Shown: piece by piece, positions 31,260-46,524 of the stretch
How the letters are laid out: every line of letters begins with the position of its first letter
How positions within the stretch are numbered: the first letter of the stretch is position 1
Origin: a phage
Direction: 5' to 3' (one strand)
Length of the DNA: 64,000 bases
Sequence record: PZ445429.1
Notes under the pieces: model-generated
What the model was told of the DNA's origin: nothing
Databases searched by the model: none
What the model saw: the letters and a program-made list of their open reading frames with translations, nothing else
Program-made: the position numbers and the translations under genes

Positions 31260-31961
31260 ATGAAATTCAAGCCCTTTGGTATGCTGGACATTGAATCTCT
31301 AGGTACTCCAGGAAATTGCGGTACTACTCATATTGCAATGCCTTCTTTCGCTTTTGTAGCGATGCACGGAATTGATAAAGATCCTGATCTGGTATTCGTT
31401 ACTCTAGACGTTCAAGATCAGCTTAATGCGGGTGCTAAGGTAACTGCCTCTACTATTGCATTCTGGATGGATCAAGCTAAAAACAGTCCATCTGCGCTCC
31501 ATATTATGGAGGCTCTAAATGGTCGTAATCCTAAACTGATTGCCTTCCGTGATGGTAAGCATCACTGCACTAATGACGTAGGCTCTAATTATGCTGCCTT
31601 CTCTATGGCTCAGAACATTATGGAATTGTCTCTAGGAGATAATGCTCTGTATTACGGCAATGGCCCAGAGTTTGATATGACAATCTACTCTGCAAATACG
31701 TTCCATGCCGGAACCCATGAAGAAATAGTTCCGTGGAAATTCTGGAACTTAGGTAACGTTCGATCTTTCCGTAATCAGTGGATGCAAGCTGGTTATAGCT
31801 ATAAAGATCTAGAAGCCGAAGGTGCTAGCTGGGCAAAAGCTAAAATGGAAAAGATGGACACCATTCGTTATGGAATCTATCCTGTGAAGCATGATCCAGC
31901 ATTCGATGCTTTAGTTGAAAGTTATTGTGTAGCCGTCATGATCGAAAAAATCAAAATTTGA
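31260..31961 (+). CDS. DEDD-type 3'-5' exonuclease-like protein
   Basis: 233 aa; Exo I-like LDIESLG, Exo III-like YPVKHDPAFDALVESY. Confidence 0.45.
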   Translation: MKFKPFGMLDIESLGTPGNCGTTHIAMPSFAFVAMHGIDKDPDLVFVTLDVQDQLNAGAKVTASTIAFWMDQAKNSPSALHIMEALNGRNPKLIAFRDGKHHCTNDVGSNYAAFSMAQNIMELSLGDNALYYGNGPEFDMTIYSANTFHAGTHEEIVPWKFWNLGNVRSFRNQWMQAGYSYKDLEAEGASWAKAKMEKMDTIRYGIYPVKHDPAFDALVESYCVAVMIEKIKI

Positions 31962-33291: not shown

Positions 33292-33320
33292 TTGCTAATT
33301 AGTTTAGTTTTCTGTATAAT
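33292..33320 (+). promoter_or_regulatory. N25-type early promoter
   Basis: TTGCTA, 17 bp, TATAAT then AAATTGATGAGA. Confidence 0.7.
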
Positions 33321-33350: not shown

Positions 33351-33668
33351 ATGATTTTTCATATTCTGATTGATGATGTGCGTAACCTTCATGGAATGGA
33401 CATTATCATTCGAACCCCCGAAGCCGCTGTTGAGTTTCTGAATAAAACCGATACCACCGGACATTTCATTTATATGGATAACGATCTGGCTGTAGATGGT
33501 ATGGAAGGTTATCAAATTCTTCGATTACTCCTAGAATTTGGTCAGAGACCCAAGAAAGTGGTACTAGTAACCTCGAACCCAGTAGCTAAAGAGACCATGC
33601 GTAATGATCTCTTAGACGAAGGGTATCAAGAAAGCCCTAATCGTATTGAGTACGATTGGCCGGAGTAA
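33351..33668 (+). CDS. stand-alone CheY-like receiver-domain protein
   Basis: 105 aa; HILIDDV, FIYMDNDLAVDGMEGYQILRLL, VVLVTS mirror receiver-domain motifs. Confidence 0.45.
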   Translation: MIFHILIDDVRNLHGMDIIIRTPEAAVEFLNKTDTTGHFIYMDNDLAVDGMEGYQILRLLLEFGQRPKKVVLVTSNPVAKETMRNDLLDEGYQESPNRIEYDWPE

Positions 33669-33673: not shown

Positions 33674-34123
33674 ATGAAGGCAGCTTTGCTTTTAATAGCT
33701 GCCCTAACCTATAGCTTCAATAGTCATGCGACCTACGACTCAAAGCAGATTGATTGCATTGCAAAAAATATCTACTTCGAAGCACGAGGTGAGGGCACTA
33801 AAGGAATGATCGCAGTTGCACAGGTTACTAAAAACCGTGTTAACTCTGGTACTTTTCCTGATTCTTACTGTAAAGTAGTATATCAGTCTAACCAGTTCTC
33901 TTGGGTGGCCAAGAGACCAAAAGTTGATAAAACCGATGAGGCTTGGCAAGTTGCTAAGAATTTAGCTAGAGTGATATACTACGTTGATTTACCACAAGAT
34001 CCAACACATGGAGCGTTATACTTCCATAGTGGTAAAGATAAACCGTACTGGACAAAGAAGTTTAAGAAAACAACGAAGATTCAAGGCCATACGTTCTACA
34101 AGCCTGTGGTTAAGAAAACTTAA
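33674..34123 (+). CDS. SleB-like cell-wall hydrolase with signal peptide
   Basis: ATG 33674; signal peptide MKAALLLIAALTYSFNSHA; hydrolase-like core. Confidence 0.65.
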   Translation: MKAALLLIAALTYSFNSHATYDSKQIDCIAKNIYFEARGEGTKGMIAVAQVTKNRVNSGTFPDSYCKVVYQSNQFSWVAKRPKVDKTDEAWQVAKNLARVIYYVDLPQDPTHGALYFHSGKDKPYWTKKFKKTTKIQGHTFYKPVVKKT

Positions 34124-35331: not shown

Positions 35332-35959
35332 TAATAGTGGGGTGCCGAAACCACTTATGTAACAACACTGCCGTCCTAGTATAATAGGTATTATTAGGGC
35401 TTCACCGCCTGAAGATGTGGGTTCGAGTCCCACGGTCGGAAAGAGTTGGATAACTGGTGCTTCTAATGGCGAAGCAATCGCAGGCAGTTGCGCACTGCCA
35501 AAACCACGCGGTAGTTGGTTCCAGGCTAACCAACCACTCTTGAAAAGTATATACTATGGTTTTGCTTGTTCAAGAAGCTTCGCATCGAAAATCGGAGGTG
35601 CGATTTTATCCGACCGCGTGGAGGACGTCTCTCCGTTAAGTGACGAAAAGTGGGACGATTCAGGTAGAGCTGGATATGGAACACCTATACATATGCGGAG
35701 TGCGCACAAAGCATATTGCGGTGGTACTAAACGAAATTAGGAGTCATGACCTGCACAAGTTTAGTATGTCATAACCGATGTACATTCAGTACAAAAACCA
35801 CTGAAGCTAAGATAGATAGTCACCTTGACTTAAACTGGAAGATATTGTCTGACGGAAGGGCTGCAGAGCTTAATCTGAGGGGGCTGACCCTACCTACCGT
35901 CGGGTATCTTTAAGAGCTTTTATAAGAGTTCTTAAAAATACCTAACAAAAGGAATCAAT
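35332..35959 (+). ncRNA. ORF-poor GC-rich structured region downstream of an HNH gene
   Basis: ~630 nt; perfect T-arm-like hairpin GTGGG-TTCGAGT-CCCAC at 35417-35433 without matching acceptor; only a doubtful GTG-start ORF. Confidence 0.3.
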
Positions 35960-36469
35960 ATGAATCTAGGAACAACTTGTATCTTTGATCATCAAGAAAT
36001 GTGTTGCCCTCGTATTCTGCATATAGCACACTTCTCCGAACGATTGACGCTTGATCAAGCTCGTGAGAAAATGAGTGAGATTACAGGATACAATCTTCGA
36101 GAAGGTGAATACTTTAGCGTAGCTTTGGATTATATCGACAATACTCGTCTTTATCACTTAGTTCAGCTTGGTGAAGAAACTGAGGAAGTAAAAATGGCGA
36201 AAGATACATTACGTCGTTATCGCCCTCAGATTCTAGAGCGTACACTTCGTGGAGAGCCTAGTGATTACTTCTATATGCGTTGCTATGACGCAGATGCTAC
36301 TCAATATGTTAATCTAAATCGCTTCTATCATGATGTGAATGATTTTCTGGACAAGAAATATGATGAATTAATCATAGCATCCAAAGCACAACGTGCCGCT
36401 AGAAATGCTGAAAAGGCTGCTAAAGAAGCTGTAGAAAGCCAAACTAAATTGAACGAAATCATTAAGTAA
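35960..36469 (+). CDS. hypothetical protein
   Basis: 169-aa ORF with RBS AAAAGGAATC. Confidence 0.5.
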   Translation: MNLGTTCIFDHQEMCCPRILHIAHFSERLTLDQAREKMSEITGYNLREGEYFSVALDYIDNTRLYHLVQLGEETEEVKMAKDTLRRYRPQILERTLRGEPSDYFYMRCYDADATQYVNLNRFYHDVNDFLDKKYDELIIASKAQRAARNAEKAAKEAVESQTKLNEIIK

Positions 36470-36477
36470 TCAACTTT

Positions 36478-36552
36478 CGGGGTGTAGTCTAAAGGAGAGG
36501 CAGGAGTCTTCTAAATTCCTTTATGCAGGTTCGAATCCTGTCACCTCGGCCA
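36478..36552 (+). tRNA. tRNA-Arg (anticodon TCT)
   Basis: Hand-folded cloverleaf: acceptor CGGGGTG/CACCTCG, T-loop TTCGAAT, anticodon loop CTTCTAA, CCA encoded. Confidence 0.7.
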
Positions 36553-36585
36553 ATTTTATTAACTGTAATTAAACAAAGGAAATAT

Positions 36586-37530
36586 ATGTTTACTAAAAAC
36601 ACTAAAGAACTGACTTCTGAGCAAAAAGTAATTCGCACTATCAAACGTTGGGGTGTTGGTGCTGTATTTGGTCTTGGCGCTATTATTCTGGCTCTCAATT
36701 CCTACACAGTTGTTCAGGATGGTACTGTTAAGACTCAAACCTTCCTGGGTAAAGTTAGCCCGAACCCTGTACTGCCCGGCTTCCATATTGTTAACCCATT
36801 TGCTTCTTTTGATACTTTTAGTACGAAAGATATTTCTATGAAACTGGATAAACTTCAGGTTCCTAGCCAGGATAAGTTTAAGTCTACTGTTGACATTACC
36901 GTTATGTTGCAGTTTGATGGTGCTAAAGCTCCTATGAACCGTGTTAACGCAGGTACTCAGGATCAGGCTCTGAACAAGTACGTTGAAGAGAAGATGCTAT
37001 CTACGATTCGTGAGTTTGGTAAGTCTGTACCAAAAGCACAAGATCTGTTCGACGCTAAGATTCAGGCTCAACTGCAAACTGCTATTCAGCAAGAAGTAGA
37101 AGAGTATGCGCGTCCTTATGGTTACACCGTTAAGCAAGTATTCCTTCAGGATATTACTCTGCCACCGGTAATCATGGAACAGGTACAGAACACCAAAGTT
37201 CGTGAAGAACAAGTTAACGCTGCAAAAGCTGAACTGGCTCGTGTTGAACAAGAAGCACAGCAGAAAGTTAAGCAAGCTGAGGCAGATCGTTCCGCTCGTG
37301 AAAACATGGCAGTAGCTAACGAACGTGACGCAGATGCTAAACTGTACGCAGCTAAGAAAGAAGCTGAAGCTAACGCCGCTCTGCAACGTACCATTACTCC
37401 TGAAATGATTCGTTGGAAGCAGCTGGAAGTTGAAATGCTTCGTGCTGAAAAATACCAAGGTGGTGTACCGCAGACTGTTGTTGGTACTGGCTATGATGGT
37501 CAAATGATCATGGATATGCGTAACAAGTAA
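36586..37530 (+). CDS. SPFH/band-7 domain membrane protein
   Basis: ATG 36586; N-terminal TM WGVGAVFGLGAIILAL, SPFH core, Ala/Glu/Gln-rich coiled-coil tail; two terminator hairpins follow. Confidence 0.75.
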   Translation: MFTKNTKELTSEQKVIRTIKRWGVGAVFGLGAIILALNSYTVVQDGTVKTQTFLGKVSPNPVLPGFHIVNPFASFDTFSTKDISMKLDKLQVPSQDKFKSTVDITVMLQFDGAKAPMNRVNAGTQDQALNKYVEEKMLSTIREFGKSVPKAQDLFDAKIQAQLQTAIQQEVEEYARPYGYTVKQVFLQDITLPPVIMEQVQNTKVREEQVNAAKAELARVEQEAQQKVKQAEADRSARENMAVANERDADAKLYAAKKEAEANAALQRTITPEMIRWKQLEVEMLRAEKYQGGVPQTVVGTGYDGQMIMDMRNK

Positions 37531-37555
37531 TAGTTACACGTAATCTTCGAACCAA

Positions 37556-37590
37556 GCCCGCGTTTCCTCCGAGAGCGCGGGCTTTTCTGT
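37556..37590 (+). terminator. rho-independent terminator after SPFH gene
   Basis: GCCCGCG...CGCGGGC plus TTTTCTGT. Confidence 0.75.
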
Positions 37591-37600
37591 ATTTAAGACA

Positions 37601-37640
37601 AAAGAAAAGCCCCTTACCTTTCGGCAGGGGCTTTGTTTTT
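37601..37640. terminator. bidirectional terminator at a convergent gene junction
   Basis: AGCCCCT...AGGGGCT hairpin with T-runs on both strands. Confidence 0.65.
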
Positions 37641-37847
37641 GGTTTAGAACCATATACTCTTGTTACAGCAACCACCCATACGGGAGACCAATCTTGACTG
37701 AAAATCTACTCTAGGGGGCAGGATAAGAGTAGGCTTAAAGGCAAACGGATTGAACACCGGTATTTGCGTAAACATTGCTGGAGAGCAACAACGTGCTACA
37801 GGCATTGGGCAGCATGACGTAGGTTTTCTACAACACATATAAACTCC

Positions 37848-38267
37848 TTAGGATTTCTCCCCATTTTGCGCTTTTGCAACTTGACTTTGACAGAAACTGT
37901 TAAACTTACCCATAAGTGATACAAGTTGCTTTCCATCCTCTGTTTTAGCGAAGTCTTCGAAAAGGGCTAGAACAGCCTGTCCTTCCGCAGATACCTGCGG
38001 TTGTTGGGTTTGTTGAGTCATCTGCTGCTGTGGTTGCATTTGCTGAGGCATCATCTGCTGAGGCATCATTTGTTGCATTTGCATTTGCGGCTGCATTTGC
38101 ATCTGGTTGATGTTTCCCTGCGGGTTTTGCAGGGAATTTTGCATTTGCTGTGCTTCTGCCAATCTCTGTTGCAACTGTTGTAAGTAGGGGTTATCAAGCC
38201 CCGGAACGGGCTGCTGGGAGCCCATACTTTGATTAAATCCGTTGTTCACAAAACCATATTTACTCAT
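37848..38267 (-). CDS. Gln/Met-rich low-complexity protein
   Basis: 139 aa, QMQMQPQMQMQQMMPQQ repeats; opposite strand to flanking genes; terminator downstream. Confidence 0.5.
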   Translation of the reverse strand: MSKYGFVNNGFNQSMGSQQPVPGLDNPYLQQLQQRLAEAQQMQNSLQNPQGNINQMQMQPQMQMQQMMPQQMMPQQMQPQQQMTQQTQQPQVSAEGQAVLALFEDFAKTEDGKQLVSLMGKFNSFCQSQVAKAQNGEKS

Positions 38268-38289
38268 GATGGGCTCCTCCCCTTAATTA

Positions 38290-39285
38290 TTAAGCCGGCA
38301 GTTTAGCCTGCAGACCAGCCAGAGTCTGAGTGATAGCACCAAGACTTACAGCGATTTGGTTGATTACCTGACCGTTAGCACCACTACCCTGAGCGATAGC
38401 TTCACGCAGACGGCATTCGTTCAGTTCGTCCTGAATACGCGCAGTAGTTACACCAGCGATTGCAGACTGAAGTTCACAGCAGCATTCAGCGATCTGACGT
38501 TCCAGAGCGTTCTGGTTAGCACAAGCCTGAGCAGCTACAGCAGCGAACTGGTTGTTAGTCTGGATAGACTGAGCAAACATGATCTGAGCGGTATCGAACT
38601 TGTCTTGAGCACGTGCGATCTGGTTAGCAGCGAAAGCTTGATCCATCTGGCGAGAAAGATCGAACTGACCCTGAATAACGTTACGAGTTTCCTGACAGAT
38701 CTGGTTGGACAGGTTAGCACCAGTACCGTAGATCGTAGTCAGAAGCTGTTGAGTACTAGCAGCTTGAGCAGCTCCTACACCATTTACTGCACTCAGAACA
38801 GCACCAGTACCCTGATTAGCTTCAGTACGAGTAGTGTTGATTGCAGCTAGAATACTTGCAGTATCCTGGTTAGAAAGGATCGCGTCCACAGCAGTTCCCT
38901 CAGCGGCAACACCAGCACCGCGGCCAAAACCACCGAAACCACCGAATCCACCTGTTAATAGAGCACCGATTAAGATAGCTCCGAATAGACCCATACCTTC
39001 ACCACCGAAAGCACCGTTAGCAACTGCTGGGTAACCACCCATTAGGCCAGGGAAGCCACTAGTGAATACGTTTACTGGTTCTTGCATTTTATGTTTTCCA
39101 TGTTTATGACAATGTTCATCATCGTCATCTTCTTCATCATCTTCATCGTGTTCACGATGTTCTTTTTCGTAGGCTTTGACCTTCTCCCACTTTTTCTTGT
39201 CTGATTCTTCGTGACGACGCAGTTCTGCTGCTACGCCAGCGACCGTATCAGGACTCTTAGCTACTTCTTCTGTCATTTTTGACAC
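38290..39285 (-). CDS. glycine-zipper membrane protein with acidic/His-rich N-terminus and Gln/Ala-rich tail
   Basis: 331 aa; EHDEDDEEDDDDEHCHKHGKHK, GAILIGALLTGGFGGFGGFG, Q/A-rich C-terminus. Confidence 0.55.
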   Translation of the reverse strand: MSKMTEEVAKSPDTVAGVAAELRRHEESDKKKWEKVKAYEKEHREHDEDDEEDDDDEHCHKHGKHKMQEPVNVFTSGFPGLMGGYPAVANGAFGGEGMGLFGAILIGALLTGGFGGFGGFGRGAGVAAEGTAVDAILSNQDTASILAAINTTRTEANQGTGAVLSAVNGVGAAQAASTQQLLTTIYGTGANLSNQICQETRNVIQGQFDLSRQMDQAFAANQIARAQDKFDTAQIMFAQSIQTNNQFAAVAAQACANQNALERQIAECCCELQSAIAGVTTARIQDELNECRLREAIAQGSGANGQVINQIAVSLGAITQTLAGLQAKLPA

Positions 39286-39482
39286 CTCCTAGTATATAGA
39301 AAATGTGTGTCTCTTTGATCACTCATCCATAACATATACTTTACACTACCCCAGCGAAAATGTCAAGGGGTCTTTAAAAATTGCCCCCGGATTTTTAGTG
39401 GGGTAACAATTTCTGGACCTCACCACTCACCTGCTACCCTTAAGTGCCCTGCGATTTTCCACTAAAAAGTTTAAAAATTCGA

Positions 39483-39511
39483 TTGCTTGAATGCTAAATT
39501 CTCTATATAAT
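39483..39511 (+). promoter_or_regulatory. N25-type early promoter (nadR-like operon)
   Basis: TTGCTT, 17 bp, TATAAT then TATAAATTTGAGAGAGG. Confidence 0.7.
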
Positions 39512-39541
39512 ATATTTATAAATTTGAGAGAGGAATCAAAT

Positions 39542-40597
39542 ATGATTAAGACTGGTCTAGTAATTGGTAAGTTCGCACCATTAACGCGTGGTCATATTAA
39601 CCTAATAAACACAGCAGCAACTATGTGTGAACGAGTTATTGTTGTAGTTAGTCATGATAATCGTTGGCTGGATAAGCAGAACACACGTGATCAGGAAGTA
39701 TTACAGTTAAAGAATCGACTTCGTTGGTTAGAACAAACTTACGCGGATATTGAGCACATTTCGGTAGAGTACATTATTGAAGATGATATTCCTGAATATC
39801 CGAATGGTTGGCCGGAATATGCTAGAATCCTTAATGAAAATTACGGACATTTGCCTGAGATCACCATTTTCTCTAGCGAACTAGACTATGATGCAGAATA
39901 TAAGAAATATCTGCCGAAGTTTGGTCATTATATTGTAGATTCTGATCGGACTCGTGTTCCAATCTCAGCTACAATGATTCGTAATGATCTTATGAAGTAT
40001 TGGGAGTTTCTTCCTAGCGTAGTTCGTAAAGATTACGTGCGTAAGGTTGTAATCATTGGGACTGAAAGCTCGGGAAAGACTACTTTAACAAAATACCTTG
40101 CGAAGCTATACAACACTTCGTGGGTAGAAGAATATGGCCGAACGTATTGTGAAGTTGATCTAGTTGGTAACGAAAATCTACTTACCAGTGAAGATTATAG
40201 TAAAATTGCGTTCAGACACAAAGAGCTAGAGTTTGAAGCAGAACGTACTGCAAATAAGATCATGTTTGTGGATACAAATGCTTTTATTACTGAGTTCTAC
40301 CACAGACTTTATGAACATCGTAAGAATCCTGTGGTTACAGCAATTGCAAAAGAAGAACATTACGATTTAGTAATTGTTCTAGCGCCTACTGTTAAGTGGG
40401 TAGATGATGGTTTACGTATTAACTCCGATCGTTCAATTACTTCTGAACTGTTCGAGCAGATGAAGAAAGAATTTCCAAATCAGTTCCCTGAAGGGCGTAC
40501 TGTTTACATCGACTCCCCGGACTACAAAGTTCGTATGGACGAAGCAGTAAACGCAGTAGACTGGCTGATTCATCACTTTAACGTTGGAGAGTTTTAA
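39542..40597 (+). CDS. nadR: NadR-like bifunctional NMN adenylyltransferase / ribosylnicotinamide kinase (no HTH domain)
   Basis: ATG 39542; GKFAPLTRGH motif, C-terminal Walker A GTESSGKTT. Confidence 0.8.
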   Translation: MIKTGLVIGKFAPLTRGHINLINTAATMCERVIVVVSHDNRWLDKQNTRDQEVLQLKNRLRWLEQTYADIEHISVEYIIEDDIPEYPNGWPEYARILNENYGHLPEITIFSSELDYDAEYKKYLPKFGHYIVDSDRTRVPISATMIRNDLMKYWEFLPSVVRKDYVRKVVIIGTESSGKTTLTKYLAKLYNTSWVEEYGRTYCEVDLVGNENLLTSEDYSKIAFRHKELEFEAERTANKIMFVDTNAFITEFYHRLYEHRKNPVVTAIAKEEHYDLVIVLAPTVKWVDDGLRINSDRSITSELFEQMKKEFPNQFPEGRTVYIDSPDYKVRMDEAVNAVDWLIHHFNVGEF

Positions 40598-40598
40598 T

Positions 40599-41276
40599 AT
40601 GACTAACTATCTTGTAAATGACTTTAAAAACTGGAAACCTTTGGAATATCTGTGGCTGTTTATAGCAGTCGCCTTTATTAGTTTAGCAAACTATAATGGT
40701 ACAGCTCTAGATTGGGCTACTGCAATAACCAATGTGGTTTGTGTTATTCTGGTTGCAAAAGGACGTGTTTCCAACTATATTTGGGGCTTAGTGGGTGTTC
40801 TTACATACGGTATTACAGCTTTAAACGCAGATCTTTATGGTAATGCTGCACTAAACCTGCTATACTACGTTCCTATGCAGTTTTATGGAATGTACTTATG
40901 GCATAAAAATAAGCCAAGTAATCTGCCAGATGTTCCAACTAAGGTTCTGAATAAAGCCCAAGCTCTGCTGACTCTAGGGATTCTAGCAGTAGCTACTTTA
41001 GGTTACGGCAGCTTCCTTGCTACTACCGCTGATCCATTCCCAATGCTTGACGCATTTACTGCGGTTGGTAGTGTGATTGCTATGTGGCTTATGGTCAAAC
41101 AATATGCTGAACAATGGCTGATTTGGATTGTTATTAACATTGGTACTGTGTACATTTGGCTTGTAACTGCTCAATCTACAGGTGCATCTTACGCAATCCT
41201 AGCAATGTGGCTAGTATTCTTAGGCAACTCTATTCTTGGAGCTTATAAAGGATACTTTGTACGCGTTAACAAATAA
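40599..41276 (+). CDS. pnuC: PnuC-like nicotinamide riboside transporter
   Basis: ATG 40599; polytopic membrane protein with SNYIWGL motif; adjacent to nadR-like gene. Confidence 0.7.
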   Translation: MTNYLVNDFKNWKPLEYLWLFIAVAFISLANYNGTALDWATAITNVVCVILVAKGRVSNYIWGLVGVLTYGITALNADLYGNAALNLLYYVPMQFYGMYLWHKNKPSNLPDVPTKVLNKAQALLTLGILAVATLGYGSFLATTADPFPMLDAFTAVGSVIAMWLMVKQYAEQWLIWIVINIGTVYIWLVTAQSTGASYAILAMWLVFLGNSILGAYKGYFVRVNK

Positions 41277-41283
41277 AGTAGTT

Positions 41284-41310
41284 ATAGCCCTCTAAGCGAG
41301 GGCTATTATA
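41284..41310 (+). terminator. terminator-like hairpin after pnuC
   Basis: AGCCCTC-TAAGC-GAGGGCT then ATTATA; weak U-tract. Confidence 0.45.
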
Positions 41311-41323
41311 CAGAAATTTTCAC

Positions 41324-41352
41324 TTGCTTAATATAGAAAATTTCTGTATAAT
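41324..41352 (+). promoter_or_regulatory. N25-type early promoter
   Basis: TTGCTT, 17 bp, TATAAT then ATAAATTCGAGAGAGAGAGG. Confidence 0.7.
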
Positions 41353-41386
41353 ATATTTATAAATTCGAGAGAGAGAGGAATCAAAC

Positions 41387-41683
41387 ATGAAACGCATTGT
41401 ACTTGCATTGACTCTAGTATCTACTTCTGTATTTGCTGCTCCGCAACAGGAACTTTGTCAAGTTCAGGTTTGTAATAAGTTAGAACGATTTACTTTGGAT
41501 ATTTGGTCACACATTAAAGATAATATGGGTGAACAGTGTTTTGATATTGTTCTGCCAAAAGAGCAGGCTGTTCCTGGTGCTGTTCTTAGCTCAGAGTCAC
41601 GTTGGTGGCAGGGTTCTTCTATCAACCCAACTAAGAAGTCAGTGACACGTATCAAACAGGTATATCAGTGCAATGTTCAGTAA
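41387..41683 (+). CDS. secreted small protein
   Basis: 98 aa, signal peptide MKRIVLALTLVSTSVFA. Confidence 0.5.
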   Translation: MKRIVLALTLVSTSVFAAPQQELCQVQVCNKLERFTLDIWSHIKDNMGEQCFDIVLPKEQAVPGAVLSSESRWWQGSSINPTKKSVTRIKQVYQCNVQ

Positions 41684-41691
41684 AATTTCAC

Positions 41692-41720
41692 TTGCTTAAT
41701 GCCGAAATTTTCTGTATAAT
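41692..41720 (+). promoter_or_regulatory. N25-type promoter driving tRNA-Ser/tRNA-CAT
   Basis: TTGCTT, 17 bp, TATAAT; tRNA begins ~15 nt downstream. Confidence 0.7.
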
Positions 41721-41734
41721 ATATTCATAAATTT

Positions 41735-41828
41735 GGAAGATTAACCCTAAAGGTAAGGGAGCTGTTTGCTAAACAGCCAGTAACTGTGGATACACGGTGT
41801 GCCAGTTCGAATCTGGCATCTTCCTCCA
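41735..41828 (+). tRNA. tRNA-Ser (GCT), type II
   Basis: Acceptor GGAAGAT/ATCTTCC, T-arm GCCAG-TTCGAAT-CTGGC, loop TTGCTAA, long variable arm, CCA. Confidence 0.75.
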
Positions 41829-41833
41829 AATTT

Positions 41834-41911
41834 GGTTCTCAAGCTCATTTGGTATGAGCCGTCGCCTCATAAGCGAAAGGTAGGTAGGTTCGAATCCTCC
41901 GGGAGCCACCA
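41834..41911 (+). tRNA. tRNA with CAT anticodon (Met or Ile2)
   Basis: Acceptor GGTTCTC/GGGAGCC, D-stem GCTC/GAGC, loop CTCATAA, CCA. Confidence 0.65.
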
Positions 41912-41928
41912 ATTAATTAGGAGACTAT

Positions 41929-42114
41929 ATGTCTAGATTCTACGAAATGAAGAAAGCATTAGAAGAATGTCGGTGTAAGGACTGTCATGGTGGTGGTAGG
42001 CAGGATGATGCAGAACCTGGGGATATTTTCTGTAGAGAATGGGAATGTCCTACATGTAAAGGTACTGGTATCAACCCTGAATATGCAATTTGTCTAGACA
42101 TTGAGCGAGGCTAA
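41929..42114 (+). CDS. small zinc-ribbon protein
   Basis: 61 aa; CRCKDCHGG...CPTCKG. Confidence 0.45.
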   Translation: MSRFYEMKKALEECRCKDCHGGGRQDDAEPGDIFCREWECPTCKGTGINPEYAICLDIERG

Positions 42115-42454
42115 GATGGATATTTTTACTACTCCGGCAATAAACCTTTTAGGTGTTGGCTTGTTCCAAGCTACGGTGTATCGTACTGATGATTCTACTG
42201 ATGTGGTAACGTTCATCGTACCTGAGTTCTTCCTAGAAAAGTTCTTTGAAGAGTTTGAGCAGTTCCGTGAAGAACACAATGCTCATTCCGATATGGAAGA
42301 TCTAGCAGCTATGTTCCCTGTGGTTTACGGCTATATCTTTGAAGGTAATGGCCTAGATCTTAATAAATCTGAACTCGTTGAACTTAACTGGGGCATCAAT
42401 TTTGAAGTTGGCTCTCCATTTCCTCGATATTTCCAGGGTTTAGAGATTCGATAA
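42101..42454 (+). CDS. hypothetical protein
   Basis: 117-aa ORF; stop 8 nt before a tRNA. Confidence 0.5.
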   Translation: MSEAKMDIFTTPAINLLGVGLFQATVYRTDDSTDVVTFIVPEFFLEKFFEEFEQFREEHNAHSDMEDLAAMFPVVYGYIFEGNGLDLNKSELVELNWGINFEVGSPFPRYFQGLEIR

Positions 42455-42462
42455 GATTACAT

Positions 42463-42539
42463 GGGGGTGTAATCGAATTGGCATAGGTACTGGACTTAAA
42501 ATTCAGGTTTTGTGGGTTCGAATCCCACCACCCCTACCA
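42463..42539 (+). tRNA. tRNA with TAA anticodon (Leu-type) but class-I short variable arm
   Basis: Acceptor GGGGGTG/CACCCCT, T-arm GTGGG-TTCGAAT-CCCAC, loop CTTAAAA, 5-nt variable region, A73, CCA. Confidence 0.6.
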
Positions 42540-42690
42540 AATTAAGGAAATAAAATGAAAGCTAGTAAGAAAGCACTACGTAAATTTATGTACTGTCGTT
42601 TTCATAGCATCAAGACTTCAACTAATGGTACGACTTATGATCGCTATGATCCTAAGTTTGGCTTACATTCTAAATAACTGGAGAAAACAA

Positions 42691-42897
42691 ATGGCTAATC
42701 CTGAAATTACGGCACAGCGCTTTATGCTAAAAGGTATTATTGCTGAAGCAGGCGTGACACAAGAAGTGGAAGATTTCCATAAGCAGTTCCTAAATATTCT
42801 CACTCAAGCCAAAGAGCTAGGAGAGAAAGAACATGGCGCGGCTATTATGGCAATCACATTGGTTGGGCTTGATCTGGCAGAAGAATCAGGAGTTTAA
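42691..42897 (+). CDS. hypothetical small protein
   Basis: ATG 42691 preceded by GGAGAAAAC. Confidence 0.45.
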   Translation: MANPEITAQRFMLKGIIAEAGVTQEVEDFHKQFLNILTQAKELGEKEHGAAIMAITLVGLDLAEESGV

Positions 42898-42927
42898 CTC
42901 CTCCAAGCAGAAATTTTAAAAATGTAC

Positions 42928-42957
42928 TTGCCTTTTGCTTTAAATTTCTGGTATAAT
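42928..42957 (+). promoter_or_regulatory. N25-type early promoter
   Basis: TTGCCT, 18 bp, TATAAT then TATAAATTGATGAAGGAG. Confidence 0.6.
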
Positions 42958-42987
42958 AGTTATATAAATTGATGAAGGAGTTAACGA

Positions 42988-43263
42988 ATGCAAAATCGTG
43001 TTATAGCAACTGGTATTGAAAGTGCAATCTGTAAATCCTGGGAAGGCTGGGAAGGTGAGATTGAATGGCTTTATTTCTACGATGTAGAACTTCTGCCGGA
43101 AGTTAAAGCTAAATGTGTTGAAGCTGGCATGGCTCCAGATGCAAAAGCTGATATTGATATTTCAATGTCTGAACTTAAAGGTCGTGTAATTACTGTTAGT
43201 GATGAGGGCGAAGAAGTTTTCGAACTTCCATTCTCCTTAACTGTCACTCCTAAGTTCGATTAA
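42988..43263 (+). CDS. hypothetical protein
   Basis: 91-aa ORF, promoter plus RBS GAAGGAG. Confidence 0.5.
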   Translation: MQNRVIATGIESAICKSWEGWEGEIEWLYFYDVELLPEVKAKCVEAGMAPDAKADIDISMSELKGRVITVSDEGEEVFELPFSLTVTPKFD

Positions 43264-43299
43264 CTAATACAGCACTTAGCAAGTTCTTTAAAATTTGAC

Positions 43300-43328
43300 T
43301 TGCTCAGTGCCTTAAAACTTGATATAAT
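43300..43328 (+). promoter_or_regulatory. promoter driving tRNA-Tyr/Glu/Trp/Phe cluster
   Basis: TTGCTC, 17 bp, TATAAT; ~120-nt leader before first tRNA. Confidence 0.6.
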
Positions 43329-43453
43329 AGTTATCTAATTTGGAAAACATATCTGAATGAGAAGTAACTAAGCGAGTTGCTTTTAGGGGTAAAGTCAGGA
43401 TTTCCTGAAATATTCCACTTTGAGTTTAACCGACTTACTTTTCATTCAAATAT

Positions 43454-43534
43454 GGGGGATTGGCTCAGTGGCGACGGCGCCTGGCTGTAGACCGGGTATA
43501 TCACGCGGAGGTTCGAGTCCTCCATCCCCCACCA
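43454..43534 (+). tRNA. tRNA-Tyr (GTA)
   Basis: Acceptor GGGGGAT/ATCCCCC, T-arm GGAGG-TTCGAGT-CCTCC, loop CTGTAGA, 10-nt variable arm, CCA. Confidence 0.7.
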
Positions 43535-43542
43535 AAATTAAT

Positions 43543-43617
43543 GCACCTATCGTCTAATGGTTAGGACATCAGGATTTCAATCTGAGAATCGGAGTTCAAT
43601 TCTCCGTGGGTGTGCCA
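43543..43617 (+). tRNA. tRNA-Glu (TTC)
   Basis: Acceptor GCACCTA/TGGGTGT, D-stem GTCT/GGAC, loop ATTTCAA, T-loop TTCAATT, CCA. Confidence 0.7.
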
Positions 43618-43626
43618 ATTAATAAT

Positions 43627-43697
43627 TGGGGTACGCATAGGTTGCTAGTGGGCCTCCAAAACCCATGAAAAGGTTTCGAATACCTTTACCCCTGCCA
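43627..43697 (+). tRNA. tRNA-Trp-like (CCA), irregular D-arm
   Basis: T-arm AAGGT-TTCGAAT-ACCTT, 3' TACCCCT-G-CCA, loop CTCCAAA; short, U1-U72 mismatch; may be degenerate. Confidence 0.45.
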
Positions 43698-43703
43698 ATA
43701 TTT

Positions 43704-43778
43704 GCACCTTTAGCTGAGATGGATTAGCGCTTGCCTGAAGAGCTTGAGAGGTTGGATCGTTACCAACGGGGTGCACCA
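43704..43778 (+). tRNA. tRNA-Phe-like (GAA)
   Basis: Acceptor GCACCTT/GGGGTGC, D-stem GCTG/TAGC, loop CTGAAGA; two U-U mismatches in anticodon stem, non-canonical T-loop ATCGTTA. Confidence 0.5.
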
Positions 43779-43795
43779 ATTTGAAGGAGATGCTG

Positions 43796-44068
43796 ATGCA
43801 TCCTGAAAACTTCTTTATTTACTGTGCGGATAAGTCATTAAAACGCAGAATTAATAAAGTCTATCATTATCGTGCCAGTCAACAGCCTTATGTTTATGCT
43901 TTTGACGGAGATCACATCCCACTAGAACAATTGGCATGTGATTACATGGTATTGAAGAACTTTGACGAGACAAAGATCTCAAGCGTTCATAATCGACAGA
44001 ACCCGTTAACGTGGAAATATAAGAAGAAAAAGAAAGGCATCATATTTCTGAAAAATGTAGTTGCTTAA
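43796..44068 (+). CDS. hypothetical protein
   Basis: ATG 43796 six nt after AGGAG. Confidence 0.45.
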   Translation: MHPENFFIYCADKSLKRRINKVYHYRASQQPYVYAFDGDHIPLEQLACDYMVLKNFDETKISSVHNRQNPLTWKYKKKKKGIIFLKNVVA

Positions 44069-44089
44069 CCACTTAAAGTTCTGTATAAT
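44061..44089 (+). promoter_or_regulatory. N25-type early promoter
   Basis: TTGCTT (inside preceding ORF 3' end), 17 bp, TATAAT. Confidence 0.6.
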
Positions 44090-44118
44090 TATTACATAAG
44101 TTGAACTGGAGAAGCAAC

Positions 44119-44343
44119 ATGACAGAACAAGAATTGAAAGAACGTAAGCTGGTAATGCTTCGCTTACTAAACATTTTCTCTGGTATGGATGGTGGTATTG
44201 ACTTCATTCAACTACGCACTTTTGTAGAAGAAGCAGAAGGCGAGGCTATCACTAGGATTCTTAAACATATGGGTTTGTTACTAGATGCTGCTAATGTGGC
44301 TACTCAATATAAACTCAAAGATTTACCAGAGCGTGTTAAATGA
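44119..44343 (+). CDS. hypothetical protein
   Basis: ATG 44119 after RBS GGAGAAG. Confidence 0.5.
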   Translation: MTEQELKERKLVMLRLLNIFSGMDGGIDFIQLRTFVEEAEGEAITRILKHMGLLLDAANVATQYKLKDLPERVK

Positions 44344-44531
44344 AAATGTTAGTTAAATTTAAGTGTTGTGGTTCTGAACATATTTTCACTCGTTATAGAG
44401 AGTTTAAGATGTGTGAGTGTGGTAAGTCAGGCTATGATGCTGGAGATGGCTTTTATGCTAGATCTTTAGGACATTCTAAAGATCTAGAGTTTACTAATCT
44501 CGAAAAGCAAGATAAATCGACCGTTGGCTGA
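44340..44531 (+). CDS. small Cys-rich zinc-ribbon-like protein
   Basis: 63 aa, KCCGSEH...CECG; 3' end overlaps tRNA start by 14 nt. Confidence 0.45.
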   Translation: MKMLVKFKCCGSEHIFTRYREFKMCECGKSGYDAGDGFYARSLGHSKDLEFTNLEKQDKSTVG

Positions 44532-44593
44532 ATGGCTTAGGCGGAGGCCTGCAAAACCTCCTTATGTGAGTTCGAATCTCATGCGGTCGTCCA
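44518..44593 (+). tRNA. tRNA-Cys (GCA)
   Basis: Acceptor CGACCGT/GCGGTCG, T-loop TTCGAAT, loop CTGCAAA, CCA. Confidence 0.65.
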
Positions 44594-44599
44594 AATTTA

Positions 44600-44685
44600 G
44601 GGCCGTTGGCTGAATGGTTTAAGCGCCGGACTGTTAATCCGTATCCGCAAGGATAAAGTAGGTTCGACTCCTACACGGCCCGCCA
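44600..44685 (+). tRNA. tRNA-Asn-type (GTT) with unusually long variable region
   Basis: Acceptor GGGCCGT/ACGGCCC, anticodon arm CCGGA-CTGTTAA-TCCGT, 15-nt variable region with GCAA-loop hairpin, G73, CCA. Confidence 0.6.
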
Positions 44686-44712
44686 ATTTCATTAACAACT
44701 GAGGAAATAGAT

Positions 44713-44898
44713 ATGACAACTCGTGCAATTGCTCGACTAGAAGCTGATCGTGATAATCTGATTAATAATATTAAGGTTCGTGGTAATATTATTAAGGCTC
44801 TGAAAGCTGAACTTCTTGAAGAACTTCAAGGTCAAGTAGAGCGTCGTGAAGCTCTAAAAGAGGTTGAGGAAGCTATCGAAAAACTCAAGGCTGAATAA
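44713..44898 (+). CDS. hypothetical coiled-coil protein
   Basis: 61-aa ORF with RBS GAGGAAATAG. Confidence 0.45.
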   Translation: MTTRAIARLEADRDNLINNIKVRGNIIKALKAELLEELQGQVERREALKEVEEAIEKLKAE

Positions 44899-44901
44899 AT
44901 T

Positions 44902-45483
44902 ATGCACGGAATATCCTTACCCATTCCAGGGTTTGAGGAGTACTTAGTAAGTTTGGATGGGTTAGTATTTAGTATCAAATCAAACAAAATACTAACCCCA
45001 ATAACCAGTAATTACGGATACTTATCTATACGTCTCCATAAAAATGGTCAACAGAGAAATACCGGTGTACATAGGATTTTAGCATGTGCATTTAAGAAAT
45101 TACCAAGTCTAGACTCTGAACTAGAAGTTGACCATATTAACACAGACATTACTTATTGGGGTCTTAATAACTTACAAGTGCTCACAAAAGAGCAGCATCT
45201 AGAAAAGACTTTAAAAGACAAAGGATTTAGTAAACTAAACCATGATAATTGTTGTAAGGATTGTGGTAAAGCTATTTCTTTAAAAGCTGAAAAATGTCAG
45301 GAGTGCTCTTCACATAAACCAAAAGATATCTCTATAACTAAAGAAATAATCGAGGTTACAGTAAGAGAGCTAGGCTGGTCAGGTGCAGGGAGAAAGTTAA
45401 GTTATTCAGATAATGGGTTGCGTAAAAGATACACTTCTTTAGGAGGCAATCCTAAAGAACTTAAAAAGTTAAAGGTACTATAG
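44902..45483 (+). CDS. HNH homing endonuclease inside the tRNA cluster
   Basis: 193 aa; HNH core EVDHINTD...NNLQVLTKEQH plus zinc ribbon CCKDCG...CQEC; stop overlaps tRNA start. Confidence 0.7.
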   Translation: MHGISLPIPGFEEYLVSLDGLVFSIKSNKILTPITSNYGYLSIRLHKNGQQRNTGVHRILACAFKKLPSLDSELEVDHINTDITYWGLNNLQVLTKEQHLEKTLKDKGFSKLNHDNCCKDCGKAISLKAEKCQECSSHKPKDISITKEIIEVTVRELGWSGAGRKLSYSDNGLRKRYTSLGGNPKELKKLKVL

Positions 45484-45548
45484 TCTAACGGTTAGGATAC
45501 TCCCCTGTCACGGGAGAGGTAGGGTTTCGATTACCCTTAGTACCGCCA
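45474..45548 (+). tRNA. tRNA-Asp (GTC)
   Basis: Acceptor GGTACTA/TAGTACC, anticodon arm CTCCC-CTGTCAC-GGGAG, T-arm AGGGT-TTCGATT-ACCCT, CCA. Confidence 0.8.
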
Positions 45549-45554
45549 AATTAT

Positions 45555-45631
45555 ACATCCATAGCTCAATTGGTTAGAGCTACCGCCTCTTAAGCGGTAG
45601 GTTCTAGGTTCAAGTCCTAGTGGGTGTACCA
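45555..45631 (+). tRNA. tRNA-Lys (CTT)
   Basis: Acceptor ACATCCA/TGGGTGT, D-stem GCTC/GAGC, anticodon arm ACCGC-CTCTTAA-GCGGT, CCA. Confidence 0.8.
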
Positions 45632-45844
45632 AACATCAGAGCAGCGTGATGTACTGCAAAGACCCAAAGTCCGGGGTGGACTTCTTGATTCAAAGGAGCA
45701 GGCATTAATTATCATTCTAGCGTGGTGGAGAGGGGACACCAGCTTGCCGAGGGTAGAAGCTCGTTCGATTCGAGTGAAAGAATGGTTCTCGTAAATCCGC
45801 ACAAGTGATAGTAGGTTCAAGTCCTACCTAGATTGACTCATTAT
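45632..45844 (+). ncRNA. ORF-free tRNA-like region (candidate stable RNA or degenerate tRNA genes)
   Basis: 213 nt between two tRNAs; two T-arm-like hairpins (GCTCG-TTCGATT-CGAGT near 45757; GTAGG-TTCAAGT-CCTAC at 45811-45827) without a matching 5' acceptor strand. Confidence 0.3.
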
Positions 45845-45915
45845 GCGTTCGTAGTTAAAAGGTATAATTTTTGGTTGCCAACCAGAAGTTGAGGGTTCGA
45901 TTCCCTCCGACCGCA
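45845..45915 (+). tRNA. tRNA-Gly (GCC), no encoded CCA
   Basis: Acceptor GCGTTCG/CGACCGC (one mismatch), loop TTGCCAA, T-arm GAGGG-TTCGATT-CCCTC; 3' end ...A-CAA. Confidence 0.55.
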
Positions 45916-46173
45916 CAAAATCTTTGTAGGTCGCGTCACTTATAGTGGGACTACAGGGTAAACAAGGCGATGAGTTTCCGGCCGGTTCTAGTCGCTGAAA
46001 ATCCTCCCGACCAGGTAGGTGTAGGTAAACGAAAGTTTACTTATTGAGTAGGTTCCGATAGATCGGCGGGTCTATTCTGGCGTTTAAGAGAAGTCTCGCA
46101 AACTTCTTTGTCAGCCGTGGGGCTTGAACCCTCCAGGTGGCCTACGCAATAAGTAAATTTATTAAAAATTCAT
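45916..46173 (+). ncRNA. ORF-free structured region (candidate small RNA)
   Basis: ~255 nt, GC-richer than surroundings, hairpins such as GTAAAC-GAAA-GTTTAC; no ORF of 60 aa or more. Confidence 0.25.
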
Positions 46174-46202
46174 TTGCTATTTTGCTTAATTCTCTGTATA
46201 AT
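46174..46202 (+). promoter_or_regulatory. N25-type early promoter
   Basis: AAAAATTCATTTGCTAT...TATAAT. Confidence 0.7.
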
Positions 46203-46234
46203 ATATCTTATAAAGTGTTGAGAAGGAAAGCAAA

Positions 46235-46432
46235 ATGAAAAAAGTTATGTTACTATCTGTATTCTTACTCACTGGTTGCTTTAAATTTGATTCAACCATT
46301 AACAAGGAGTATGAATTTGCAAAAAATTTCTGTGGTGGAGAGAGTAAAATACAAAACTTCAGTATACACTCTACAATTCCTAGTACCATTTACTGCATAG
46401 ATGGACGGAATATTAATATTCCACCACAATAA
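46235..46432 (+). CDS. small lipoprotein
   Basis: 65 aa; lipobox LLTGC. Confidence 0.55.
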   Translation: MKKVMLLSVFLLTGCFKFDSTINKEYEFAKNFCGGESKIQNFSIHSTIPSTIYCIDGRNINIPPQ

Positions 46433-46441
46433 AAGAATATT

Positions 46442-46518: not shown

Positions 46519-46524
46519 AACAAT

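What the first reader, a model, noticed from the sequence alone, without database searches (positions are those of the whole stretch)
33351..33668. Stand-alone CheY-like receiver domain encoded by the phage
The 105-aa ORF mirrors receiver-domain landmarks (acidic pair near the N-terminus in HILIDDV, phospho-acceptor-like Asp in FIYMDNDLAVDGMEGYQILRLL, VVLVTS) with no output domain. It could act as a phosphate sink or decoy for host two-component signalling.
Basis: partly seen in the sequence, partly recalled or inferred. Interest (0 to 1): 0.5.

Follow-up and report, generated by a model that had tools for sequence, protein, structure and literature searches.

The report
Phage cREC: receiver-fold predicted phosphoesterase
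The 105-residue phage protein does have a CheY-like receiver fold, but it belongs to the already-described, phage-specific "cREC" family, which has lost the parts needed for two-component signalling and is predicted, though never tested, to be a small enzyme that processes damaged RNA ends or NAD-derived molecules.

The parts
33292..33320 (+). Sigma-70-like promoter (TTGCTA, 17 nt, TATAAT) 30 nt upstream of the ORF
   Evidence: 10 of 12 consensus matches. This is a consensus match only, not shown to be functional.
33351..33668 (+). cREC gene: 105-aa stand-alone divergent receiver-fold protein (PF20274)
   Evidence: Pfam E=7.5e-15, 55.8 bits against a cutoff of 27; PHROG 1479 E=4.6e-30. AF2 pLDDT 92.3. 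dN/dS about 0.11.
33372..33377 (+). Codons for D8-D9, the acidic pair after beta1 (= CheY D12/D13); inferred metal-binding site
   Evidence: 100% conserved in 100 diverse family members. Register from hhalign.
33381..33413 (+). Short loop replacing helix alpha1, plus beta2; carries the family-specific residues R11 (95%), D17 (91%) and R21 (100%)
   Evidence: a 10-residue deletion relative to CheY alpha1.
33477..33485 (+). Codons for D43-N44-D45 after beta3. D43 = CheY D57 (acceptor/nucleophile position). D45 = CheY N59 ('D+2'), which gives an HAD-like DxD pair
   Evidence: D43 and D45 are 100% conserved; position 44 is H (57%) or N (38%). Register. The catalytic role is inferred.
33570..33578 (+). 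Codons for T74-S75-N76 after beta4. T74 = CheY T87; N76 is family-specific
   Evidence: Position 74 is T or S in 100% of members; N76 is 99% conserved. Register.
33633..33635 (+). Codon for S95, the position aligned to CheY K109: the classical Lys is missing
33674..34123 (+). Adjacent gene, starting 5 nt after the cREC stop codon: exported SleB-like cell-wall hydrolase (PF07486). A recurrent but unexplained neighbour of cREC
16710..18380 (-). HAD_SAK_2 'Swiss Army Knife RNA repair' phosphatase (16710-17249) and SIR2-family protein (17529-18380). Candidate pathway partners encoded 15 kb away
   Evidence: 7.7e-18 and 6e-22. The sirtuin is of the same clade as the one adjacent to Nudix-cREC in Serratia phage BF. 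The partnership is inferred.
31260..31961 (+). Rv2179c-like 3'-5' exoribonuclease, 1.4 kb upstream
   Evidence: Context only.
35369..51027 (+). Cluster of 28 tRNA genes starting 1.7 kb downstream. Candidate substrates of an RNA-end-processing activity
   Evidence: cREC lies in or beside tRNA clusters in at least 7 unrelated phage lineages.
39491..41276 (+). NadR-like NMN adenylyltransferase/kinase (39491-40597) and PnuC NMN transporter (40584-41276): NAD+ salvage genes 6 kb downstream
   Evidence: Context only.

Best explanation
The ORF encodes a member of the cREC family (Pfam PF20274), a phage-borne, highly divergent offshoot of the two-component receiver domain. It keeps the receiver's acidic phosphate/metal pocket (D8, D9, D43, T74). 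It has lost the signalling apparatus: no Lys109 equivalent, no alpha1 docking helix and no alpha5. It has gained a set of invariant polar residues around the pocket: R11, D17, R21, D45 and N76. Most likely it is a small cytoplasmic phosphoesterase made early in infection, not a switch. Proposed mechanism (inferred, not shown): D8, D9 and D43 hold Mg2+. D43 attacks a phosphoester to form an aspartyl-phosphate intermediate. The invariant Asp two residues on (D45) acts as general acid/base, as the second Asp of the DxD motif does in HAD phosphatases. R11, R21, T74 and N76 bind the anionic substrate. Following Iyer et al. [quoted passage not shown] In this phage cREC would work with the phage's own SIR2, HAD_SAK phosphatase, NAD+ salvage genes and 28 tRNAs to keep translation going under host attack. 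Shown here: family membership, fold, residue register, conservation, and absence of kinases. Inferred: catalysis, substrate and partners.
Against: No biochemical data exist for any family member: cREC is stated to be uncharacterised in PMC9503650, and no later paper was found. Most cREC loci are blocks of small unknown genes with no informative partner. In this window the link to SIR2/HAD_SAK is co-occurrence in one genome, 15 kb away on the other strand, not an operon. I saw no RNA ligase in the window, so a complete repair pathway is not evident. The two most recurrent immediate neighbours in my unbiased tally, exported cell-wall hydrolases and L7/L12-like proteins, are not predicted by the model. 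The tRNA proximity has no matched control. The describers call the active site metal-independent, whereas I infer Mg2+ dependence from receiver/HAD chemistry; neither has been tested. I could not inspect the side-chain geometry of the model.
Confidence: 0.5

Rival explanations
1. One reading: a CheY-like single-domain response regulator that is phosphorylated by host histidine kinases or acetyl-phosphate, and drains or decoys host two-component signalling.
For: Receiver fold. The acidic pair, acceptor-position Asp and Thr/Ser are all retained in register, so Asp phosphorylation by small-molecule donors is chemically conceivable. Some depositors label homologs 'response regulator'.
Against: No PF00072 hit, and not detected by a classical receiver HMM. 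The Lys109 equivalent is absent and unconserved. Helix alpha1, which carries the kinase/Hpt specificity contacts (established knowledge), is deleted family-wide, and alpha5 is absent. There are 0 kinase/Hpt hits in 2,753 ORFs of 60 loci, with working positive controls. The family occurs in phages of unrelated hosts (Enterobacteria, Vibrio, Streptomyces, Bacillus) and is fused to Nudix, which does not fit mimicry of a particular host regulator. The extra invariant residues R11, R21, D45 and N76 have no role in a simple sink.
Confidence: 0.04
2. A non-catalytic binder: a sponge or sensor that sequesters a phosphorylated small molecule (a nucleotide or ADPr-derived immune signal) in the conserved pocket, as phage sponge proteins do.
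For: It is a small (about 100 aa) stand-alone protein in phage accessory-gene regions. One lineage has a Thoeris inhibitor (Tad3) among its +-2 neighbours. The conserved charged pocket could bind rather than cleave.
Against: The conserved set (metal-binding acidic trio, DxD, Thr/Ser, two Arg, Asn) looks like a complete phosphoryl-transfer site, by analogy with receiver and HAD chemistry. The fusion to a Nudix hydrolase and the neighbourhoods of enzymes suit a pathway enzyme better.
Confidence: 0.13
3. A function tied to its commonest immediate neighbours rather than to RNA/ADPr: for example, a cytoplasmic enzyme or regulator working with an exported peptidoglycan hydrolase (envelope remodelling or muropeptide/precursor phosphates), or with a phage L7/L12-like ribosomal stalk protein.
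For: Hydrolase_2 is directly adjacent to cREC in three lineages that share nothing else in the +-5 kb fetched (T5-likes, L035, L058/59), and NlpC/P60 is adjacent in Jay2Jay. L7/L12-like genes overlap the cREC stop codon in three sub-lineages.
Against: The hydrolases carry export signals and cREC does not, so direct cooperation is hard to picture. The numbers are small, and a co-transferred two-gene cassette could explain the linkage. The L7/L12 link fits a translation/RNA role equally well. No known biochemistry connects these families.
Confidence: 0.1
4. A Toprim-like metal-dependent nuclease: acidic residues after beta1 and a DxD after beta3 on a four-stranded Rossmann-like core.
For: The DD / DxD arrangement and the compact beta-alpha core resemble the Toprim signature, as I recall it from the literature.
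Confidence: 0.03

Closest known systems
cREC (cyclic-phosphate processing receiver) family, Pfam PF20274; defined by Iyer, Anantharaman, Krishnan, Burroughs & Aravind 2021 (PMC7824862) and discussed again in 2022 (PMC9503650)
   Same: Full-length profile match well above threshold. The same conserved aspartates. Stand-alone architecture. Phage origin. No kinase partner. The genome also carries the sirtuin + HAD 'Swiss-army-knife' pair that the 2022 paper describes for T5-like phage SP15, and SP15 itself carries this gene.
   Different: Nothing essential. The T5-like clade has Ala instead of the family's near-invariant Gly after the DxDL motif. Here cREC is not in an operon with NAD/RNA-repair enzymes; it sits next to an exported SleB-like hydrolase.
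Classical two-component receiver domains (CheY, Spo0F; Pfam PF00072)
   Different: No alpha1, no alpha5 and no Lys109. It has extra invariant R11, D17, R21, D45 and N76. It is not detected by classical receiver profiles. It never has a kinase nearby.
HAD-superfamily phosphatases (functional analogy only)
   Same: The same catalytic inventory, by inference: a nucleophile Asp with an Asp two residues later (DxD), a Thr/Ser, a basic residue and an acidic pair for Mg2+. The parallel between receiver and HAD active sites is established knowledge.
   Different: Not homologous in topology: the DxD follows beta3, not beta1. There is no cap or flap, and no HAD profile hit.
2H cyclic phosphodiesterases (e.g. 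yeast Cpd1, LigT, phage Acb1-type enzymes): the known enzymes for the predicted reaction
   Same: The predicted substrate class (2',3'-cyclic RNA ends, ADPr 1''-2'' cyclic phosphate) and a similar phage RNA-repair/NAD context, according to PMC9503650.
   Different: Unrelated fold. The protein has no pair of HxT/S motifs: its only His residues are H4, H14 and H38, and none is followed by x-T/S.
Nudix-cREC fusion BF_0113 of Serratia phage BF
   Same: The C-terminal domain is cREC (E=9.6e-25). The neighbouring Sir2 is of the same clade as the window's SIR2.
   Different: It is fused to a Nudt16-like Nudix domain and embedded in an NAD+ salvage/Sir2 operon. The window protein is stand-alone and unlinked.

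Membership tests
cREC (PF20274) | Profile match above the curated gathering score over the whole domain | tested here: met
   55.8 bits against a cutoff of 27, E=7.5e-15, residues 4-87 on model positions 2-86 of 88.
cREC (PF20274) | Conserved catalytic aspartates at receiver-equivalent positions | tested here: met
   D8, D9, D43 and D45 are present and 100% conserved in 100 diverse members.
cREC (PF20274) | Never associated with histidine kinases | tested here: met
   0 hits for 8 E. coli kinase/Hpt probes in 2,753 ORFs of 60 loci, including the whole window; the controls were positive.
cREC (PF20274) | Linkage to NAD+/ADPr-processing or RNA-repair genes (family level) | tested here: met
   Nudix fusion + Sir2 + Nampt + NMNAT in phage BF. 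RNA ligase within 3 kb or less in Jay2Jay, L013 and L050. However, most loci are uninformative.
cREC (PF20274) | Such linkage for this particular gene | tested here: inconclusive
   SIR2 + HAD_SAK_2 lie 15 kb away on the other strand; NadR/PnuC lie 6 kb downstream; tRNAs start 1.7 kb downstream. This is co-occurrence in one genome, not an operon.
cREC (PF20274) | Cyclic-phosphate phosphoesterase activity | not testable with these tools
   This is a prediction only, in PMC7824862 and PMC9503650. No experimental paper was found.
Classical receiver domain (PF00072, CheY-like) | Match to the classical receiver profile | tested here: not met
   No PF00072 hit even at E<=10. A receiver HMM built from 11 E. 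coli domains finds no ORF in any cREC locus at E<=0.01. Only profile-profile comparison detects the relationship.
Classical receiver domain (PF00072, CheY-like) | Receiver-type alpha/beta fold | tested here: met
Classical receiver domain (PF00072, CheY-like) | Complete (beta-alpha)5 architecture with helix alpha1 (kinase/Hpt docking) and alpha5 | tested here: not met
   The model shows beta1-loop-beta2 with no alpha1, and it ends after a short beta5 hairpin. hhalign shows a 10-residue gap at CheY alpha1 and stops at CheY residue 110.
Classical receiver domain (PF00072, CheY-like) | Acidic pair, phospho-acceptor Asp and Thr/Ser | tested here: met
   D8/D9, D43 and T74 align to CheY D12/D13, D57 and T87 and are conserved family-wide.
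Classical receiver domain (PF00072, CheY-like) | Invariant Lys (CheY K109) | tested here: not met
   The aligned residue is S95. Across the family that column is N 15%, K 14%, S 13%. K109 is invariant in the 11 E. coli receivers.
Classical receiver domain (PF00072, CheY-like) | Phosphorylation on Asp by a histidine kinase or a small-molecule donor | not testable with these tools
   Needs biochemistry.
HAD phosphatase superfamily | DxDx(T/V) motif after beta1, with HAD profile similarity | tested here: not met
   The DxD follows beta3, and Pfam gives no HAD hit. This is a mechanistic analogy only.
2H phosphoesterase superfamily | Two HxT/S motifs | tested here: not met
   The sequence has His only at positions 4, 14 and 38, none in an HxT/S motif. 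There is no Pfam hit.
Toprim domain | Toprim fold and profile with a conserved Glu and DxD | tested here: not met

The most novel reading that the evidence does not exclude
cREC's real job is not the published RNA-end/ADPr clean-up. Instead it would be something signalled by its commonest tight neighbours: a receiver-fold enzyme or regulator that works with an exported peptidoglycan hydrolase, and in other phages with a phage L7/L12-like stalk protein. That would be a previously unrecognised phage module. My data show the repeated adjacency but cannot explain it.
Probability: 0.1. Interest if true: 0.6.

Novelty: already known. Interest (0 to 1): 0.3.

Why it matters
The finding corrects a tempting mis-annotation. 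Several GenBank records label this protein or its homologs 'response regulator' or 'cell division response regulator'. It does not look like a two-component signalling protein. If the published prediction is right, cREC would be the first receiver-fold domain working as a phosphoesterase. It would also be a new component of phage counter-measures against host tRNA nucleases or NAD+/ADPr-based immunity. T5-like phages are genetically tractable, so this copy is a convenient place to test the prediction. As a discovery it is not new: the family has been named, modelled in Pfam, and propagated into NCBI and UniProt names.

Tried and rejected
1. Sequence-level searches of the PDB with the close (A1) and broad (A2) family profiles found no solved family member. 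Classical receivers appear only at E of 0.065 or worse. The top A2 'hit' (TAL effector Hax3, E=1.2e-6) is a repeat-summation artefact: no single stretch passes. The weak gamma-delta resolvase hits (E about 0.4) are noise.
2. hhalign of the close alignment against a single CheY sequence was too weak to use (probability 2.8%), and its register was shifted by two residues. I replaced it with a 100-sequence versus 11-sequence profile comparison.
3. NCBIfam gave no match and PADLOC gave no match.
4. The search for related loci with the diverse alignment A2 failed because no stretch was conserved enough. I used three sub-alignments instead.
5. The single genome-contig scan returned only one locus, a 204-kb MAG contig that looks like a jumbo phage. 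It therefore says little about cellular genomes.
6. The longer 'fused' homologs were checked. One is an HNH-cREC fusion, probably a homing-endonuclease insertion or a gene-call merger; the others have no second Pfam domain.
7. A 2026 preprint on 'phage phosphatases' countering NAD+ depletion was read in case it characterised cREC. Its enzyme (Adpp) is a Macro-domain protein.
8. I did not identify which locus carries the Tad3 neighbour.
9. I could not inspect the model's side-chain geometry, because the coordinates are not exposed.

Full report
**The observation.**
A good sigma-70-type promoter match (TTGCTA, 17 nt, TATAAT) lies at 33292-33320. The window is a T5-like Salmonella phage (Demerecviridae, Epseptimavirus; 96-98% DNA identity to many isolates). 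The ORF is a real gene:
- tblastn finds it in 492 phage records.
- Pairwise dN/dS against two orthologs is 0.10-0.12.
- A profile search of 1.8 billion protein representatives finds 416 clusters at E<=1e-3, nearly all stand-alone proteins of about 100 aa.
- A word-indexed search finds 1,904 clusters at 90% identity; all of the 120 listed carry one Pfam domain only.

**What family it is.**
Pfam gives one significant hit: PF20274, cREC_REC, "Cyclic-phosphate processing Receiver domain" (E=7.5e-15, 55.8 bits against a cutoff of 27, residues 4-87). There is no hit to the classical receiver family PF00072, even at E<=10. PHROGs places it in phrog_1479, of unknown function. NCBIfam and PADLOC have nothing. 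NCBI and UniRef already name homologs about 90% identical to it [quoted passage not shown].

The family was defined by Iyer et al. [quoted passage not shown] They found it linked to NAD+/ADPr-processing and RNA-repair genes, and predicted that it resolves cyclic phosphates (PMC7824862). Their 2022 survey repeats the prediction and states that the domain remains experimentally uncharacterised (PMC9503650). I found no later paper that characterises it. A 2026 preprint on phage ADPR-1''P phosphatases concerns a Macro-domain enzyme, not cREC.

**Relationship to CheY-type receivers.**
An AlphaFold2 model built on 17 homologs is confident (mean pLDDT 92.3, pTM 0.85). Its elements are beta1 (4-7), a loop, beta2 (18-20), a helix (23-32), beta3 (39-42), a helix (53-62), beta4 (69-72), a helix (77-90), a two-residue strand at 92-93 (aligned to CheY beta5) and a last strand at 100-102.
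- Foldseek agrees, but weakly (best E=4.6e-3, TM 0.56).
- At sequence-profile level the PDB holds no family member, and receivers appear only at E of 0.065 or worse.

To obtain a reliable register I took 11 genuine receiver domains from the annotated E. coli K-12 genome: CheY, CheB, UvrY, RcsB, AtoC, CreB, ArcA, NarL, RssB, OmpR and PhoB. I compared their profile with a 100-sequence cREC profile. The result was hhalign probability 84.6%, E=6.9e-6, 91 aligned columns.

| cREC residue | CheY equivalent |
|---|---|
| D8, D9 | D12, D13 |
| D43 | D57 |
| N44 | W58 |
| D45 | N59 |
| G53 | G65 |
| T74 | T87 |
| G91-Y92 | G105-Y106 |
| S95 | K109 |
| P96 | P110 |

A 10-residue gap falls exactly where CheY has helix alpha1, and the alignment ends at CheY residue 110, before alpha5.

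**What is conserved and what is not.**
These figures come from 100 family members that are only 27-64% identical to the window protein.

| Position | Conservation |
|---|---|
| D8, D9, R21, D43, D45, G53 | 100% |
| N76 | 99% |
| R11 | 95% |
| Position 47 | Gly 95% (Ala in this protein) |
| P67 | 95% |
| Y92 | 92% |
| D17 | 91% |
| Position 74 | always Thr (73%) or Ser (27%) |
| Position 95 (= CheY K109) | unconserved: N 15%, K 14%, S 13% |

K109 is invariant in the E. coli receiver set. So the family keeps the receiver's acidic pocket and the Thr/Ser. It lacks the Lys and the alpha1 helix, which carries most kinase and Hpt contacts (established knowledge from receiver-kinase complexes), and it lacks alpha5. 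It adds two Arg, an Asn and two more Asp that classical receivers do not have. An invariant Asp two residues after the acceptor Asp gives a DxD pair. In HAD phosphatases the second Asp of such a pair is the general acid/base that allows hydrolysis of phosphoesters with alcohol leaving groups (established knowledge). Classical receivers take phosphate from phospho-His or acyl phosphates and do not need it. This is my inference for why the pocket looks like an enzyme's rather than a switch's.

**Context in this window.**
- Five nucleotides after the cREC stop codon begins an exported SleB-like cell-wall hydrolase (PF07486, 33674-34123).
- Upstream lie an Rv2179c-like 3'-5' exoribonuclease (31260-31961) and an unknown gene.
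- Downstream lie a YqeY-like protein, an HNH endonuclease, an SPFH/Band-7 protein, a NadR-like NMN adenylyltransferase/kinase and a PnuC NMN transporter.
- 28 tRNA genes run from 35369 to 51027.
- Fifteen kilobases upstream, on the other strand, a SIR2-family gene (17529-18380) sits beside a HAD_SAK_2 "Swiss Army Knife RNA repair" phosphatase (16710-17249).

That last pair is the sirtuin-HAD arrangement that PMC9503650 describes for T5-like phage SP15, and SP15 also carries this cREC gene.

**Context across the family.**
I collected 60 loci (708 kb) from annotated phages, metagenomic contigs and IMG/VR.
- Eight E. coli kinase/Hpt probes and the classical receiver HMM hit none of their 2,753 ORFs. 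The same probes cross-detected every kinase and regulator in the E. coli control loci.
- Serratia phage BF has a Nudt16-like Nudix-cREC fusion directly after a Sir2 gene and near Nampt and NMNAT. That Sir2 is of the same clade as the window's.
- Streptomyces phage Jay2Jay has cREC inside a tRNA/tmRNA cluster, 2.5 kb from a T4-like RNA ligase and a polynucleotide kinase.
- RNA ligases also lie within 3 kb of cREC in L013 and L050.
- tRNA genes lie within about 5 kb in 14 of 41 loci, and they directly flank cREC in L004, L049 and L054. I have no matched control for this.
- Many loci are uninformative runs of small unknown genes.

I also made an unbiased tally of 144 distinct proteins found within two genes of cREC. 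Single occurrences included SIR2, RNA_lig_T4_1, AAA_33, PIN_4, PhoH, an Rv2179c-like exoRNase, RNase_H, HD_4, AbiEii and the Thoeris inhibitor Tad3. The only recurrent families were Hydrolase_2 (3 clusters) and Ribosomal_L12 (3 clusters).

**An unexplained pattern.**
Hydrolase_2 genes are directly adjacent to cREC in T5-likes, in L035 and in L058/L059. These lineages share nothing else with the window in the +-5 kb fetched. In Jay2Jay the adjacent gene is a non-homologous cell-wall peptidase, NlpC/P60. Four of the five hydrolases (window, My1, Jay2Jay, L059) carry signal-peptide or membrane-anchor features, and cREC does not. L7/L12-like genes overlap the cREC stop codon in three sub-lineages. 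The L7/L12 link fits a translation-related role. The hydrolase link is not predicted by any current model. The L035 copy of cREC is N-terminally truncated.

**Most likely mechanism.**
This is a cytoplasmic, early-expressed phosphoesterase on a receiver scaffold. In the proposed mechanism, D8, D9 and D43 bind Mg2+. D43 is the nucleophile and D45 the general acid/base. R11, R21, T74 and N76 bind the phosphate-bearing substrate. [quoted passage not shown] The enzyme would work with the phage's sirtuin, HAD phosphatase, NAD+ salvage genes and tRNAs.

Family membership, fold, residue register, conservation and the absence of kinases are shown here. Catalysis, metal use, substrate and partners are inferred. 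I put about 0.5 on this explanation.

**Verdict.**
The protein is an ordinary member of a family that is already named, modelled and annotated. Its biochemistry is still untested, which keeps some interest alive.

Noticed in passing
window 33674-34123 (+); L035 4474-4890; L059 5186-5920; L008 (Jay2Jay) 4516-4974: Exported cell-wall hydrolases (SleB-like Hydrolase_2, or NlpC/P60 in Jay2Jay) lie directly next to cREC in four lineages that share nothing else locally. Not mentioned in the passages of the cREC papers I read, and not explained by the RNA/ADPr model.
   Followed up: partly
L011 6312-6674; L025 5311-5868; L044 2182-2739; L046 774-1334: Phage-encoded ribosomal L7/L12-like genes start inside the last codons of cREC in three sub-lineages. 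This looks like a tight cREC-L12 gene pair.
   Followed up: partly
window 16710-18380 (-): A SIR2-family gene lies next to a HAD_SAK_2 'Swiss Army Knife RNA repair' phosphatase. This is the sirtuin-HAD system described for T5-like phage SP15. The sirtuin is of the same clade as the one beside Nudix-cREC in Serratia phage BF.
   Followed up: partly
window 36478-37530 (+): An SPFH/Band-7 gene starts inside the 3' end of the tRNA-Arg(tct) gene (36478-36552). From memory, Burroughs & Aravind 2016 proposed SPFH modules with a tRNA-like RNA as RNA-repair scaffolds. Not examined.
   Followed up: no
window 35369-35442 (+): ARAGORN calls a 74-nt tRNA with anticodon TCA ('tRNA-SeC'). Related records label it tRNA-Sec or tRNA-OTHER. 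It could be an opal-suppressor-like phage tRNA, and it lies just after an HNH endonuclease gene.
   Followed up: no
window 15874-16707 (-): Two tandem paralogous genes, each with two DUF7415 repeats, lie next to the HAD_SAK/SIR2 pair.
   Followed up: no
window 31260-31961 and 32269-32907 (+); phage records: Annotation errors are propagating. The Rv2179c-like exoribonuclease is labelled 'recombination-related exonuclease' or 'metallopeptidase'. The unknown 212-aa gene is labelled 'tail fiber protein'. In some records cREC homologs are labelled 'cell division response regulator' or 'response regulator'.
   Followed up: partly
L048 5001-5312 and 5314-5640: A second, weaker cREC-like ORF (E=2.5e-7) immediately follows the cREC gene, possibly a tandem duplication.
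   Followed up: no
P0031 (273 aa); Salmonella phage Kenya-K44 38582-38878: An HNH_3 endonuclease domain is fused upstream of cREC in one T5-like variant. This is probably a homing-endonuclease insertion or a merged gene call.
   Followed up: partly
one of the +-2 neighbour proteins in alignment A7 (locus not identified): A protein matching Pfam Tad3 (type I Thoeris inhibitor, E=2e-35) lies within two genes of cREC in one lineage. This hints that some cREC genes sit in anti-defence islands.
   Followed up: no
PDB 4osz (Hax3) against the cREC profile: The cREC motif 'LPxxVxLVTSNPVGRxxM' resembles the TAL-effector repeat 'LTPxQVVAIASNxGGKQALET' closely enough to give a summed E of 1.2e-6 with no single significant stretch. 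I treated this as a repeat artefact.
   Followed up: partly
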